In this document: piece after piece, positions 14,716 through 63,649 of the stretch
Numbering within the stretch: position 1 is the first letter of the stretch
Layout: every line of letters begins with the position of its first letter
Source of the DNA: Octopus vulgaris
Lineage: Eukaryota
NCBI GenBank assembly: GCA_951406725.2
Contig: OX597817.1
Coordinates: forward strand, 120,528,001-120,592,000
Direction of reading: 5' to 3'
DNA length: 64,000 nt
Made by a program: the position numbers and the translations under genes
The notes under the pieces: model-generated
Databases searched by the model: none
What the model was told of the DNA's origin: nothing
Seen by the model: the letters and a program-made list of their open reading frames with translations, nothing else

Positions 14716-15889
14716 TTAATATTTGTTTAATTTCAAGTGTGTTGACCAAGGTGACCACACCTGGTTCACAAAAATCAGTAGTCCAGAAAGGCTTTAAAAC
14801 CAAATCATAACATTAAAACAAAATACTGTTGTTGATGCCTCAGTAATTTACACACACATATACATGTGCGCACACAAACACACACACACACACACACACA
14901 CATACACACATGCAAAAATGCTCAGTTAATTTACAAATGCAGCAAAGCTAAAATCTTTAGGTCTAACTCTAAGTAATCTTTAGTATGAGAAATAAGTACT
15001 GCTGGCACATCAGCAATTTATGTAACTAAACAAACTGCCAAGAGTGTGTCTAATATTTAAATCAATCAATCAGATTTAGTTAGAAGTGTAAGAACAACAG
15101 CTATAAATACAATTTTACAGTGGCTTTAAGAAGTAGGGGAGTCAATTGCTGTTTAAAGTTAATGAACTAGAAACAGCATTGTCCAGTTAAGCCTCTTTTA
15201 CTATTATTCATGCTGTGGTTGTATCATAAACATTACAGACCTTGTACAACTGTCTTATATGTCTTGTAAATTTAATTTATTCATTTAATTTATGAATGCA
15301 GTGATGCCTAAATTCTTTAGGTATGACCCAAAGTAATGCTTACTATACATACCTCTATATTTACATCTGTGTGTGTGTAATGGACATATATATAAAAATT
15401 TTAAGTAAACAGAAAAATGGAGTAATATTGATGAACAACAATTGACTTACATAGATTATTACTTATTAATTCGATACAAATAGATTGCATCCCATCTAAC
15501 AGCTGTTTCTGCTTCCAATGTCATGTGATATTGCCATTGATATGCTAAAAATATTTATCATATTTGATAAAAACATAGGTAATTTACTGGTAGTATAATG
15601 GATACTTCTATCCCTTAGATGGTTATTTCAACCTCTAACTCAGCAAACCTTATATATATATATGGAGTAGTACATATAAATTATTCAAGAGCATGCATGT
15701 TTGAAAAGATTAATTGAAAGCGCTCACACACTAGGAAACAAACTTCTTCCAAAAAGGTTAGTGACATTCTGATAAAAGATTTCATAACTCTTTAAAAAAA
15801 GACTGATAGAAAATATTTTTTTAAAATATCCCTTTTATACTTAAAAACTGTATTAAATAATTTTCATTCAGACTTTCAAATATATATAT

Positions 15890-16287
15890 CTTTTACTTGT
15901 TTCAGTCATTTGGCTGTGGACATGTTGGAGCTCCATCTTTAGTTGAGCAAATCGGCCCCAGAACTTATTCTTTGTAAGCCTAGTACTTATTCTATCAGTC
16001 TTTTTTGCCAAACTGCTAAGTTATGGGGATGTAAAAAGACCACCATCAGTTGTCAATCGATGCTGGGGGGACAAACACAGACACAGAAACATATACACAC
16101 ACATACATATATATATACATATATACGACGGGCTTCTTTCAGTTTCCATCTACCAAATCCACTCACAAGGCTTTGGTTGGCCTGAGGCTATAGTAGAAGA
16201 CACTTTCCCAAGGTGCCACTGCGTGGCACTGAATCCAAAACTGTGTGGTTGGTAAGCAAGCTACTTACCACACAGCCACTCCTGTGC
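15890..16287 (-). mobile_element. SINE family A, full-length
   Basis: Reverse complement of the 1055-1446 copy. Confidence 0.92.
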
Positions 16288-16392
16288 TTATATATATATA
16301 TATATATATATATATATATATCAGTATGTCGCCATGATAGATCGTTAGCCACTACACACATTTTTTTTCTCTCCTTGTTTTTTTCTGTGTCC

Positions 16393-16428
16393 CTTTCTGT
16401 AGAAGAGCATAGGCTCGAAACGTAAAAG
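16393..16428 (+). ncRNA. Minimal type I hammerhead-like motif (variant core) within a ~200-bp insert in (TA)n
   Basis: cttt-CTGTAGA-A-GAGC-atag-GCTC-GAAAC-GTA-aaag: helix I cttt/aaag, helix II GAGC/GCTC; position 6 is T instead of the conserved A. Confidence 0.5.
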
Positions 16429-18199
16429 ACTTTTTCTATTTCTGAGCGTTATACTAATACTTCTGTTTGTTTTGTACACCACCTGTCTGTCTTTTGTTTT
16501 TTTCGTAAACTCCCCCTATATATATATATATATATATATATATATATTATAATTATTATTATTAACATAGAAGTACCAGAGTACTGAAGCGTTGAGAATT
16601 TTGTGCATTGGTACTTAGCAGATGAATTATTAACAATGTGTGTGTGTGTGTGTATGTGCATAAGCTTCACTGTTAATGCTGCTAATTCAAGTATTAAACC
16701 TTTTTTTTTTTATTAGAAATGAAACAATGAGAGAGATTTACCTAACGAACATGATACATGAACCCTGGAGTGAAAATAGAATAAAGCTTTTATTTAAATA
16801 GAATAAGTAAACTTTATTCCATATATTGAGTCCCCACTCCTCTCTCACTGTCTACATTATGCTAAAATGCATATAACTTGTATGCACATAACACACATAT
16901 ATTATTACATTATGAGTTGTGCTAAATAAATTGTATTGTTCAAATAGTTAAAAATGTAAGGTAGAATTTTTATTACTTTTCTTTTAATGTTTCCGTTTTG
17001 ATAATTAAAAGCAAAATGCTCTTTGATTTCGAATTGTATATTGTCTAAAGTTTGTATTAAAAAAAAACCCAAAAAACAAAAAGACATTCCTTTCTTACCA
17101 AATGCTTTCACATCTAAATTAACTACAGTCTACATGCTTTATTTCATTAAAAATAATACATATCCATGAAATGTAGAGCAGTGGTGACAACAAGCCATTG
17201 TCTTGTACATTTCCTCAAACATATAAAAGTCAAATATATAAATAAATAAACAAAAATAAACTTTCATCTAATTTCTTGTTGAGAGTGAGAATAACATACT
17301 TTTTGTTTTTTTATCTTCAAGATATATTTTTTCTCCCTTTCGCTTTTCATCAGTAGAAGGCCATGTTTGTCAATGGGCTATTTTCTAATAACAAAACTGA
17401 TATTTTCTCTTTTGTTTTATGGATTGGTTGTGAGGTTTTTTTTTTCCATCATTTTATTTAATTTTTGCTTTTGTTAATTCCAACAGTAATGAAAGGAAAC
17501 TTAATAACTTAACTGAAATATTCTGCCTTAATGTAATTATCACTGTTGGTGCCTTCTATATATGTTTGCACAACGACAATTACTTAGAATTCCATGTCAT
17601 GGCACCACCATTGTCATCATCATCATCATCATCATCATCATCATCCTCATCGTCCTAACTAAAATTATAGCACGTTTTTAACTTTAATTAGTAAAACTAA
17701 ATTAGAATGAATTCCTTTTTCCATGGAAAAACCAACATCATTTTAATTAAATTAGATTTCAAATTTGTTTCTTTCTTGTTTATGATCCTTTGTATCTAGT
17801 TTTATAATTTCATTTTATAAATGCAGGAATTTTATCACAAAGACCCCAGTATTTGACATAGTTAAGCTTTCTCCTTAACCCTTTCAGTATACTAATTATC
17901 TGCTAGTCAATCCCACAAAAATATCAATTATTCACTATACATTACTGTTAGCATCATTATTAGTTTAATATTTGTTTTATGTGCTGCTGTTTATTGAATA
18001 AGTCTACAGAACAGCCTCTCACAAACAGTTTCTCTCACACCTCTTCTTCCCCACTCCCAGGCCTAAATTTCTCTGAGATCTAATCTATCTCCATCATCAT
18101 AATCATGTTTTGCTACTTTCATCATTAGCCAATATTTTTATTGGTTTATCGGCTTATTGCTTCATTCAAACCACCAACTTGAGATAAGTCATCACGCAC

Positions 18200-18610
18200 A
18201 AGCCAAATGAAAAGAGAGCTCGAATGTGGTAACTGGACATGTTAGAAACTGCAGCTAATTACCCTCAAATTACACTTTACTGTCTTAAAAAGTGGAAGAA
18301 CTATATTGGATAATGTAACATTAGGGATACAAATACTGGAAATATACTGGCTAATATGTCTTTGATCATTAAATCCTTTTGATCAGAGTTGTCTTTGATT
18401 TAACTGAATGACATCAACAATTTAGGATGTTGATGAGCAATATAATATGGTGGTCTAAATCACATCTTAACATCTTAACACAATGAAAGGGTCACAATGG
18501 ATAATATAGTCCTGAATGCACTAGATCTGAATAAAAGATGGCGTGGTCACAGTTGGAATCTCTTTGATCATTGGATTGTTTATTCATGCTTGACTTGGGG
18601 GTTATACAAT
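18200..18610 (+). mobile_element. Two tandem decayed copies of family H
   Basis: gttagaaactgcagctaattaccctcaaat...ggataatgta...ctttgatcat; similar copies at ~19790, 22340, 32845, 45835, 51115, 63650. Confidence 0.65.
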
Positions 18611-61344: not shown

Positions 61345-61970
61345 TATAGATATATATATGCATACTCTGTGTATTTATTGTGTCAAACATGTGCATTTTA
61401 TTTTAAGCACGTAAATTTTCTAAGAGGATATATATTGCAACAGAAGTAAACTTACTCTTTTATTTGAAAAGACTGAAAATAATAAAAAAAAAAGGTCATT
61501 TAGAATGTTTACCGTGTTGATAGCATCATCTTATACTTGGCAGCTGTAGCATAGTGTACTTACTGCGAGAAGCTGCTGTACTGCTATTAGAATGTAACAA
61601 TAGTTGTAGGATGTCTAGTGTGAAACAATATCAATCTGTTGTTGAATTTCAGTGTGTAATTAAAGCGACATGCTGCTCTTAGTTTTTGTTGTTGCTGCTG
61701 CTATTGATGTAATTGTTGTTGTATAGATGCATCTTTATTGAGGTGGTAGGAGGGAATCATTGAAAACCTTTGTTTATCTTGTTGGGTTGTAGGTAAACAG
61801 TGATCATAATTCAAGTGCATTTGTTTCTCCTCCTCCTCTCTAGATATTCAGTTGCTATTTTTATCATCTCTTCAGGTTTTACTTTTGTCTCTGTGTGTGG
61901 ATGAGGTTATGCTTGCTTCTCTGTATACACATATCGTTTGTAGGTATATATATTCATTTATCATGCATAA

Positions 61971-62060
61971 ATACATACATACATACATACATACATACAT
62001 ACATACATACATACATACATACTTACATACATACATACATACATATATACATACATACAT
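61971..62060. repeat. (TACA)n microsatellite
   Basis: Direct reading. Confidence 0.97.
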
Positions 62061-62282
62061 GCATGCATGCAAACTTCTATATAAACATGTAAAGTATAAA
62101 GATATTAGTTATATTTGAATACATATATCACAGATGTATATACTTGTAGATGTGTATATAATAAGGATTAAAAATACAAGTTACTTGTGGATAGCTGCCT
62201 ACATACAAATATATATATATATATATATATATATATATAAATAATGTATTTGTATATCTATATCTATTTATCAAAATAAACA

Positions 62283-62326
62283 ACAAGGATATCCAGAGGT
62301 AATGCATTACCTCTGGATATCCTTGT
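62283..62326. repeat. Perfect 44-bp palindrome with no spacer
   Basis: acaaggatatccagaggtaatgcattacctctggatatccttgt equals its own reverse complement. Confidence 0.97.
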
Positions 62327-63649
62327 GGCATATTTTGGTTATAATCACCTTATTTTAAATTGTATGGATAATACCATACTAAATTCTGGTGCCTCAACTT
62401 AAGTACCATATTCATCTGAATCTAAATTTTTACTGAACTATATCTATATATCTATATATATTATAGATTCATATATTTGTACACATGAGTATATATATAT
62501 ATATATATATAATGTATATACTAATGATTACACAAGCACACACACACATTTATATTATCGTCATCATTTTAACATTCACCTTTCTGTGTTCATATGGGGC
62601 AAATGTAATTTGCGACACATTTTCTATATCTAGATACCTCTTCTGGTCACCAGTCTTCACTTGTTTCCAATGAAGCTAATATTTCCCTATGAAAGAAAGG
62701 GCACTTCTTAGATGATGATAATATATATATGTGTGTGTGTGTGTAATACAAATTCACACGCATACATGTATGCATATATACATGTGTGTGTGTCACTATC
62801 AACCTTCATTGACATTTTGTGCTAGTTGTAAATGAGTTTCACCTTTGTGCAAGACATGTCCTTCATTTGCTATCTTCCATGAAAACATTTCTGGTCATGT
62901 AGAAATATTACCTTATTCAAGAACAGGTGATGGTCAGTGACAGGAAAGGCACGTGGCCGTAGAAAAATATGCCTCAAAAACATTGCATCCAACCCATGCA
63001 ATCATGGGGAAGTGGATGTTAAAATTATATTTGGTGACAATGATGATTTCTAAGAATTATCTCCTCTTTTCTTGCAATTACTCCTAGCTCCCTTGTTTTG
63101 CTGCCCCATCTGAAAAGCAAATTTCACTTCATTGAGAATTTTTTTGCATACAATCAGTAAGTGCATCACTACCTAACCACATTATATACACTCTTTCTTT
63201 TATACACTTTCTAACACCTCTCACACACACTCATATGTACATGCATGCACACACACACACACATATACATATGCACACACGTTTATATTTTCCTCTGTAT
63301 GTATTTTATATTTCTACATACATATTTGAAATGTGAAATGAATGCTGAATATGTTTATGCCATGAAATCATAGTAATTTCACAATACACCTTTATAACAA
63401 GCTGATTGAAATAGCTTTTCAATGTATTGGAAATAGAAGCATCTAACAGAAAATTTCTCAAATAAAAAAGGAATGTCTGACAATGAAATGTGTTACTATT
63501 TCTAATGGAATTATATTTTACTCATAAAATTATAAAAAGAAATTACCTCGTAGATTAAATAAAGTAAAATATTAAAAAAAGTAACTCTGGCATTTAAAAA
63601 TTTGAAACAAAACTTTTTCTGCTTCTATATATGGAAGGAAATAATTTAG

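What the first reader, a model, noticed from the sequence alone, without database searches (positions are those of the whole stretch)
15395..62440. Possible system: microsatellite-targeted hammerhead/hairpin mini-retroelements
Seen: at least eight dissimilar 150-450-bp inserts sit in or against (TA)n/(GATA)n tracts (~15395-15650, 16320-16515, 34616-34793, 34831-35079, 37020-37480, 42272-42467, 55032-55208, 62240-62440). None has an ORF, and each carries a hammerhead-like core, a long inverted repeat, or both. Established: Penelope-like elements carry minimal type I hammerheads in their terminal repeats, often leave inverted truncated ends, and some clades associate with simple repeats. Inference: these inserts are a diverse class of non-autonomous PLE-derived or retrozyme-like elements that use (TA)n as a landing site.
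Basis: partly seen in the sequence, partly recalled or inferred. Interest (0 to 1): 0.75.

Follow-up and report, generated by a model that had tools for sequence, protein, structure and literature searches.

The report
Penelope retroelement stubs in TA microsatellites
The eight inserts are broken-off ends of Penelope-like jumping genes that land in TA repeats (six from protein-coding families, two from non-coding repeats likely carried by the same enzymes), and across the genome nearly every two-armed insertion ends at two fixed sites, one per arm, which would fit an enzyme pair starting DNA copying at two points of one RNA.

Summary
All eight inserts are real, multi-copy (1,190-3,049 first-look candidates each) and sit on microsatellites. 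They are not a class of mini-elements. Six are 3' stubs of ORF-bearing Penelope-like elements (PLEs): five Hydra-type, one Neptune-type. The 34.8-kb family has intact copies with a ~900-aa RT/GIY-YIG frame between two pseudo-LTRs. Two (34.6 kb, 55.0 kb) are stubs of non-coding head-to-tail units (~570 and ~530 nt), i.e. retrozyme-like. All eight families carry a type I hammerhead, but only two window copies keep it whole; two inserts have neither hammerhead nor significant inverted repeat. Seven families have two fixed 3' ends, X and Y. 135 of 137 classifiable two-armed insertions pair one X arm with one Y arm (41 of 42 in loci found with internal queries). This fits the two internal RT start sites shown in vitro for a lizard PLE. 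Differences from published elements: 55-200-nt tails, 44-91-nt helix II, 3' UTRs up to ~2.7 kb. Cleavage, circles and trans-mobilisation are untested. The scan found this system before, in this genome and others. Verdict: variant of a known kind.

The parts
15392..15573 (-). F1 (Hydra-type PLE) inner-site (X) arm; holds only the 3' half of the hammerhead
   Evidence: offsets +105 to -75 from the predicted cut; ORF link
15571..15651 (+). F1 outer-site (Y) arm, too short to reach X, so no inverted repeat
   Evidence: +174 to +254
16325..16516 (+). F2: single-armed 3' stub of a Neptune-type PLE
   Evidence: RT, CX4CxxC linker and GIY-YIG upstream in L341/L374
16397..16424 (+). Minimal type I hammerhead with variant core CUGUAGA; predicted cut after 16424
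   Evidence: 63 of 84 spanning copies have this core
34616..34667 (-). F3 (non-coding ~570-590-nt unit) X arm
   Evidence: unit structure
34682..34794 (+). F3 Y arm; hammerhead not included in this copy
34830..34899 (-). F4 (young Hydra-type PLE) X arm
   Evidence: full-length copies L566-L568
34891..35079 (+). F4 Y arm; its last 113 nt are identical to all 40 listed genomic hits
37024..37420 (-). F5 (Hydra-type PLE) Y arm ending on (GATA)n/(TA)n
   Evidence: endonuclease upstream
37263..37340 (-). Complete type I hammerhead, 59-nt helix II region, palindromic helix III
37421..37481 (.). Unexplained filler between the F5 arm and (TA)n; no other copy found
42266..42341 (-). F6 (Hydra-type PLE) X arm
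   Evidence: CxCX5C and GIY-YIG upstream in L019/L023
42337..42467 (+). F6 Y arm; both arms hold only the 3' half of the hammerhead
55035..55158 (-). F7 (non-coding ~530-nt unit) Y arm
   Evidence: head-to-tail units
55155..55208 (+). F7 X arm
62270..62310 (-). F8 (Hydra-type PLE, ~2.5-2.8-kb 3' UTR) X arm
   Evidence: endonuclease upstream in L431/L432
62299..62439 (+). F8 Y arm; the arms meet at a palindrome next to the predicted hammerhead cut

Best explanation
The eight inserts are 5'-truncated insertions of Penelope-like retroelements in TA microsatellites, six from protein-coding families and two from non-coding hammerhead repeats likely copied by the same enzymes, and their two-armed shape likely arises because both DNA strands of the target are cut and extended from two fixed start sites on one RNA. 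Shown here: family membership, ORF linkage, two fixed 3' ends (X, Y) in seven families, X+Y pairing, shared alleles between arms, tandem units for F3 and F7. Inferred: a dimeric RT-endonuclease binds the RNA downstream of the hammerhead, nicks both strands of the self-complementary (TA)n, primes one cDNA at Y and the other at X, each runs 5' for a variable distance, and the two cDNA ends are joined head-to-head, often through a few bases of overlap. Overlap of the arms gives the inverted repeat; the X-Y interval is the PLE 'tail'. The template is likely mostly uncleaved tandem (or circular) RNA. F2 (Neptune-type) shows one end and no inverted arm.
For: ORF links. Full F4 elements: (TA)n, upstream pLTR, 899-908-aa frame with RxRW, DKT, YRDD, YVGA, CxxC, CxH, downstream pLTR, (TA)n; 422 homologues, mostly ~700 aa, many with PF26215. 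Two end sites per family. Two-armed insertions with microsatellite at both ends: 135 X+Y, 1 X+X, 1 Y+Y, 9 with an unclassified end, of 146; loci found with internal queries 41 X+Y, 1 X+X, 4 unclassified, of 46; tail-only queries: F4 22 of 40 with an X arm on TA and no Y+Y, F8 18 of 39 with an X arm and no Y+Y. In 19 of 135 the Y arm does not reach X; the X arm reaches further 5' in 75 and the Y arm in 26, so neither arm is regularly a copy of the other. Arms of one insertion are more alike than arms of different insertions in 82 of 89 cases; at 7 polymorphic F4 sites the minor allele is on both arms 12 times. Y continues straight into the ORF (F4) or the next unit (F3 10 and F7 15 junctions), so both sites are internal in the RNA. 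In vitro precedent: an anole PLE nicks and extends both strands and starts RT at two internal sites that bound the tail (PMC11167929). Hydra clade targets (TA)n (PMC8557442).
Against: No biochemical or RNA evidence here. PMC11167929 saw no difference in start site between strands, so the one-site-per-strand rule is my inference from genomes. X and Y bins were set after seeing the histogram, and most loci were found with queries that were themselves X+Y. In one search overall arm-to-partner divergence (3.2%) was no lower than between insertions (3.6%); two loci where the alignment overran the junction inflate it and give the 3 discordant alleles. Shared alleles could also come from conversion between arms after insertion. 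34 of 135 pairs have both arms ending within 5 nt (some clipped by reference length), which fold-back also predicts. No partner enzyme is identified for F3 or F7: neither unit matched any of 72 ORF-bearing loci except as separate neighbouring inserts. Pfam does not recognise the F4 frame. Whether the TA tract pre-existed or grew on insertion is unknown.
Confidence: 0.72

Rival explanations
1. Same elements, but the inverted arm forms by self-priming or fold-back: one cDNA (or an antisense transcript) snaps back and copies itself, as proposed for rotifer Penelopes.
For: Palindromic junctions: 15 of 26 F8 pairs have both arms ending at the same palindrome (query-biased set); shared alleles between arms; proposal in PMC3846280 (passages).
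Against: 19 of 135 pairs share no sequence between arms, and the arm that lacks the tail often reaches further 5' (75 of 135), up to a whole endonuclease frame in L430. A fold-back of the Y arm cannot make these, and a fold-back of the X arm cannot supply the X-Y tail.
Confidence: 0.15
2. One reading: all eight are an independent class of non-autonomous mini-retroelements of 150-450 bp.
For: F3 and F7 are non-coding tandem units. F2 copies often begin at the same point on TA, giving a recurrent ~190-nt form.
Against: Six families are collinear with RT/GIY-YIG frames upstream; inner ends are scattered over hundreds of bases; six window copies lack a whole hammerhead, so they cannot be complete units.
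Confidence: 0.08
3. The inverted repeats are terminal repeats of TA-targeting miniature DNA transposons (MITEs).
For: Arms look like TIRs in TA dinucleotides at 42.3 kb and 34.8 kb.
Against: Arms are asymmetric, variable at the inner end, absent in many copies, and continue into hammerheads and RT/GIY-YIG frames.
Confidence: 0.02

Closest known systems
Hydra-clade Penelope-like elements, incl. Hydra-1_Obim of Octopus bimaculoides (Craig et al. 2021, PMC8557442)
   Same: C-terminal GIY-YIG without CCHH, CxCX5C linker (F5, F6, F8), DKT and RW motifs (F4), CxxC/CxH at the C-terminus, (TA)n targets, type I hammerhead with palindromic helix III, tandem and inverted 5'-truncated copies.
   Different: Tails 55-200 nt instead of 30-40; about 44-91 nt between the two core strands instead of about 12-26 in the 26 published Hydra rows (two spike-moss PLE-X rows there are also long); stop-to-end distances up to ~2.7 kb; F4 lacks the CxCX5C linker and has an N/S-rich spacer, ~900 aa versus ~700.
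Neptune-clade PLEs with minimal hammerheads (Cervera and de la Pena 2014, PMC4209133; Craig 2021)
   Same: F2: RT, CX4CxxC linker, GIY-YIG, minimal hammerhead with ACGU palindrome, microsatellite flanks.
   Different: Core is CUGUAGA (A6 to U) in 63 of 84 copies; activity unknown (a natural A6C variant is slow, PMC3088659); no second end or inverted arm seen.
Metazoan non-LTR retrozymes (PMC7229834; bioRxiv 10.64898/2026.07.22.740005)
   Same: F3 and F7: non-coding head-to-tail units, one type I hammerhead per unit, co-occurring with PLEs.
   Different: Longer (~530-590 versus 170-400 nt), arrays seen only to about 1.5-2 units, dispersed as two-armed X+Y insertions in (TA)n with the same footprint as coding PLEs; expression, cleavage and circles not shown.
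Poseidon PLE of Anolis (PAc), reconstituted in vitro (Frangieh et al. 2024, PMC11167929)
   Same: Two fixed internal ends downstream of the hammerhead bounding a tail; AT-rich targets; template apparently uncleaved.
   Different: Other clade; short tail; no strand-to-site assignment reported.

Membership tests
EN+ Penelope-like element | Single ORF with RT and C-terminal GIY-YIG | tested here: met
   F4: intact 899-908-aa frames. F2: RT plus EN in a broken copy. F1, F5, F6, F8: endonuclease part only, broken; RT not reached.
EN+ Penelope-like element | Pseudo-LTRs from partial tandems; inverted 5'-truncated copy | tested here: met
   L566-L568, L430; 146 two-armed insertions. Not seen for F2.
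EN+ Penelope-like element | Tail at one end only | tested here: met
   X-Y interval in 7 families, 57-200 nt, longer than the 30-40 nt described
EN+ Penelope-like element | Type I hammerhead in the pLTR | tested here: met
   Intact by descriptor in F3 16/31, F4 34/40, F5 24/56, F6 11/21, F7 20/33, F8 33/53; F2 59/84 with variant core; F1 27/38 have the core but 0 pass the helix I test (bulge after 2 bp); strict descriptor in at most 1 of 300 shuffles per family
Hydra clade | CxCX5C linker, no CCHH | tested here: met
   F5, F6, F8; F1 degenerate; F4 lacks the linker
Hydra clade | RWK and DKT motifs in the RT N-terminal region | tested here: met
   F4: RIRW at 39, DKT at 126, matching by eye the published Hydra-1_Obim lines; other families not reached
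Hydra clade | (TA)n insertion preference | tested here: met
Hydra clade | Phylogenetic placement of RT with published Hydra families | not tested
   no tree built; published sequences were only read
Neptune clade (F2) | CX2-5CxxC linker before GIY-YIG | tested here: met
   CX4CxxC in L374
Non-LTR retrozyme (F3, F7) | Non-coding head-to-tail unit with one type I hammerhead | tested here: met
   longest stop-to-stop frame 77 aa; 10 and 15 junctions
Non-LTR retrozyme (F3, F7) | Two consecutive units each with a complete hammerhead | tested here: inconclusive
   copies seen reach about 1.5-2 units; no locus was shown to hold two complete motifs in tandem
Non-LTR retrozyme (F3, F7) | Self-cleavage and circular RNA | not testable with these tools
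   only contigs available
MITE / TIR DNA transposon | Symmetric fixed terminal inverted repeats | tested here: not met

The most novel reading that the evidence does not exclude
Hydra-clade PLEs integrate by obligatory two-site priming: one RT of a dimer starts at X and the other at Y on the same RNA, one per target strand, so every two-armed insertion is X+Y; and non-coding hammerhead units (F3, F7) that show the same rule are retrozymes copied in trans by these enzymes. The intact young F4 element supplies the protein to test both.
Probability: 0.55. Interest if true: 0.65.

Novelty: new variant of a known kind. Interest (0 to 1): 0.45.

Why it matters
How PLEs integrate and which enzyme moves animal retrozymes are both open. 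The near-strict X+Y pairing across seven unrelated families turns the two start sites seen in vitro into a sharp prediction (one site per strand of the same target). The same footprint on coding PLEs and non-coding units points to PLE enzymes as the carriers of retrozymes. A young family with intact ~900-aa frames and a simple (TA)n target makes this testable. Practically, such stubs are easily mis-annotated as MITEs, hairpin RNAs or unknown repeats, and their long helix II escapes standard hammerhead descriptors.

Tried and rejected
Rfam scan: only microsatellite-driven miRNA matches below gathering scores among the 150 shown. The repeat finder was swamped by microsatellites and SINE pairs. 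Expression: no RNA holder listed for the F3 unit; four guessed-RNA runs were contigs and cannot show ends, strand or level. Empty sites: contigs of three runs broke at the TA tracts and none bridged the inserts. Genomic sign of hammerhead cleavage: with tail-only queries only 3 of 35 Y arms and 4 of 25 X arms (F4) and 3 of 36 Y arms (F8) end within 5 nt of the cut, so the cluster of 15 of 26 F8 copies at the cut is at most a hot spot inflated by the query. F8 X-arm calls were confounded by the reference and redone. A repeat in the first F8 reference gave a false end class, removed. Fold of the long helix II: median z below -2 only for F7 (-4.2); F3 -1.9; others -0.2 to -1.3; at most two pairs per family with two-sided changes; no consensus fold for F4, so a conserved long stem is not established. 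ORF hits beside F3/F7 loci (5 of 105) were examined for L273 and L176 and are neighbours separated by TA or a SINE; the other three were not inspected. My first label 'Nematis-like' for the endonucleases was dropped after reading the Hydra section. Pfam and PDB sequence searches did not recognise the F4 frame. The Lunse et al. paper on PLE hammerhead dimers was not held and may describe similar variants.
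Full report
Setting. The window is AT-rich animal DNA with 77 TA tracts of five or more units in a 2.8-Gb genome, G000. It is likely an octopod: inferred from the labels of earlier scan notes, one named homologue from Argonauta and my recall of octopus SINEs. I call the families F1-F8 in window order.

Observation. The eight inserts exist as described and abut microsatellites. Each is multi-copy: 1479, 1232, 1615, 1190, 3049, 1287, 2433 and 1380 first-look candidates, of which 40 were scored and 25-30 fetched per query; these are not copy numbers. 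(TA)4 occurs within 16 nt of 3.4% of window positions, but follows 60 of 60 inner and 50 of 52 outer F4 ends, and 39 of 65 main F2 ends (58 of 65 any microsatellite). With tail-only queries, 40 of 40 F4 ends lie on TA and 36 of 39 F8 ends near a microsatellite. SINE-like repeats in the window are TA-flanked as well. The claim that each insert has a hammerhead or a long inverted repeat holds for six: inverted repeats beat 200 shuffles in F4, F6, F7, F8, and whole hammerheads occur in F5 and F2. F1 and F3 copies have neither.

What the families are. I walked upstream using longer copies. F6: CxCX5C and GIY-YIG about 0.45 kb before the end (L019, L023). F5: the same endonuclease type about 1 kb upstream, with hits in 11 of 25 loci. 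F8: endonuclease followed by about 2.5-2.8 kb of non-coding DNA (L431, L432). F1: endonuclease about 2.2 kb upstream, linked through overlapping copies. F4: L430 joins endonuclease and stub, and three full copies read (TA)n, upstream repeat, 899-908-aa open frame, downstream repeat, (TA)n, with RIRW, DKT, YRDD, YVGA, CxxC and CxH motifs. Its homologues are 422 proteins, mostly about 700 aa and unnamed. These motifs match the Hydra clade, described as (TA)n-targeted and including an Octopus family (PMC8557442 section 11 and supplement). F2 leads to a broken RT, a CX4CxxC linker and GIY-YIG, i.e. Neptune-type. RT was reached only for F2 and F4. F3 and F7 differ: upstream of the unit comes the unit's own 3' end, giving head-to-tail monomers of about 570-590 and 530 nt, 10 and 15 such junctions in loci found with internal queries, longest frame 77 aa. 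PLE protein hits in 5 of 105 F3/F7 loci; the two I inspected were separate neighbours.

Hammerheads. Every family has a type I motif 94-287 nt before its outer end. Counts of intact motifs among copies spanning the region: F3 16/31, F4 34/40, F5 24/56, F6 11/21, F7 20/33, F8 33/53; F2 59/84 with core CUGUAGA; F1 27/38 with the core but none passing my helix I test because of a bulge. A strict descriptor hit 6 of 8 reference copies and at most 1 of 300 shuffles each. Helix III is palindromic, as in dimer-acting PLE motifs (PMC4209133 parts 1-2; PMC6765202 passages). In seven families 44-91 nt separate the two core strands, against about 12-26 nt in the 26 Hydra rows of the published table, where two spike-moss rows are also long. 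Support for a conserved long stem is weak outside F7 and F3. A natural A6C variant is slow (PMC3088659 passages), so F2 may be poorly active. Cleavage is untested.

Insertion anatomy. Seven families show two fixed 3' ends, an inner X and an outer Y, 57-200 nt apart; F2 shows one. Window copies F1, F3, F4, F6, F7, F8 are one X arm plus one Y arm head-to-head; F2 and F5 are single arms. Of 146 distinct two-armed insertions with microsatellite at both ends, 135 were X+Y, 1 X+X, 1 Y+Y, 9 had an unclassified end. In loci found with internal queries: 41 X+Y, 1 X+X, 4 unclassified, of 46. Independent equal choice of site would give about half. Tail-only samples gave 22 X partners in 40 (F4) and 18 in 39 (F8), no Y+Y; the rest were single-armed or ran beyond the fetched stretch. 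Bins were set after seeing the histogram. Inner ends are scattered; the X arm reaches further 5' in 75 of 135, the Y arm in 26, within 5 nt in 34 (some clipped by reference length), and in 19 the arms share no sequence. Arms of one insertion resemble each other more than arms elsewhere in 82 of 89 cases. In young F4 copies minor alleles sit on both arms 12 times, with 3 discordant calls in two badly aligned loci, while the overall divergence comparison showed no difference, 3.2% versus 3.6%. Arm ends do not pile up at the predicted cut in unbiased samples, and full copies read through it.

Mechanism. Frangieh et al. (PMC11167929, parts 1-3 of 4; supplements not seen) showed that an anole PLE protein, predicted to be a dimer, nicks and extends both strands of AT-rich DNA, starts RT at two internal RNA sites that bound the genomic tail, and does not need hammerhead cleavage. 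The data here fit that and add an inferred rule: one site per strand, on a template from one source. (TA)n is self-complementary, so both strands offer the same target. The fold-back model (PMC3846280 passages) explains palindromic junctions but not arms without shared sequence. F3 and F7 carry the same footprint without an ORF, so they are likely moved by these enzymes; the partner is not identified.

Known versus new. Inverted truncated copies, tails, hammerheads and (TA)n bias are all described for PLEs (PMC8557442 passages). PLEs were proposed as retrozyme carriers (PMC7229834 passages; bioRxiv 10.64898/2026.07.22.740005 part 1 and passages; its supplements were not seen). An octopus repeat annotation lists 31 recently active PLE families without mention of hammerheads or Hydra (PMC13282606 part 1 and passages). 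In six searches and the texts read I found no statement of the X+Y rule, tails over 100 nt or long helix II in Hydra elements; the library lacks most subscription papers, and Lunse et al. was not held. The scan has noted this system before in this genome and others; a sequence look-up with the F4 stub found nothing. Those notes gave me the Hydra lead and the one-arm-per-site wording, both tested here.

Verdict. New variant of a known kind; interest 0.45.

Noticed in passing
   Followed up: partly
window 40434-40844: Old inverted repeat (arms about 109 nt, 77%) with a GAAAC..GUUA-like half motif and 70-80% matches to other loci; possibly another two-armed PLE stub.
   Followed up: partly
window 37421-37481: Filler between the F5 arm and (TA)n with no other genomic copy found; contains short words also present in the F5 hammerhead region.
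   Followed up: partly
window 58026 (minus): Compact hammerhead-like motif passing the strict descriptor, in a stretch with no match to fetched loci.
   Followed up: no
L181, L186: A second element shares the last ~120 nt of F7 but has a different upstream part with its own long-stem hammerhead: 3'-end sharing between families.
   Followed up: partly
L373 (745-3087), L367, L216-L245: Abundant intact Neptune-type PLE (781-aa frame, many copies) ending on (TA)n, with a U3-A8 variant hammerhead-like motif seen by eye.
   Followed up: partly
L566-L568: F4 frame has an N/S-rich spacer (about a third N+S) between RT and endonuclease and lacks the CxCX5C linker, recalling N-rich inserts in rotifer Penelopes.
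   Followed up: partly
G000 genome-wide: A Hydra-type endonuclease query gave 14,758 first-look candidates, suggesting this clade is very abundant here.
   Followed up: no
window 5764-6195, 60638-61348, 15875-16287: SINE-like repeats occur as inverted pairs or TA-flanked composites; their mobilising partner was not examined.
   Followed up: no
L247, L250, L254, L263: Single-armed F3 copies start within about 15 nt after Y and end at X, with TA on both sides, suggesting a defined RNA start just behind Y.
   Followed up: partly
window 1616-1736: Short repeat with TTAGGG-like words between TA tracts, with a few matches elsewhere.
   Followed up: no
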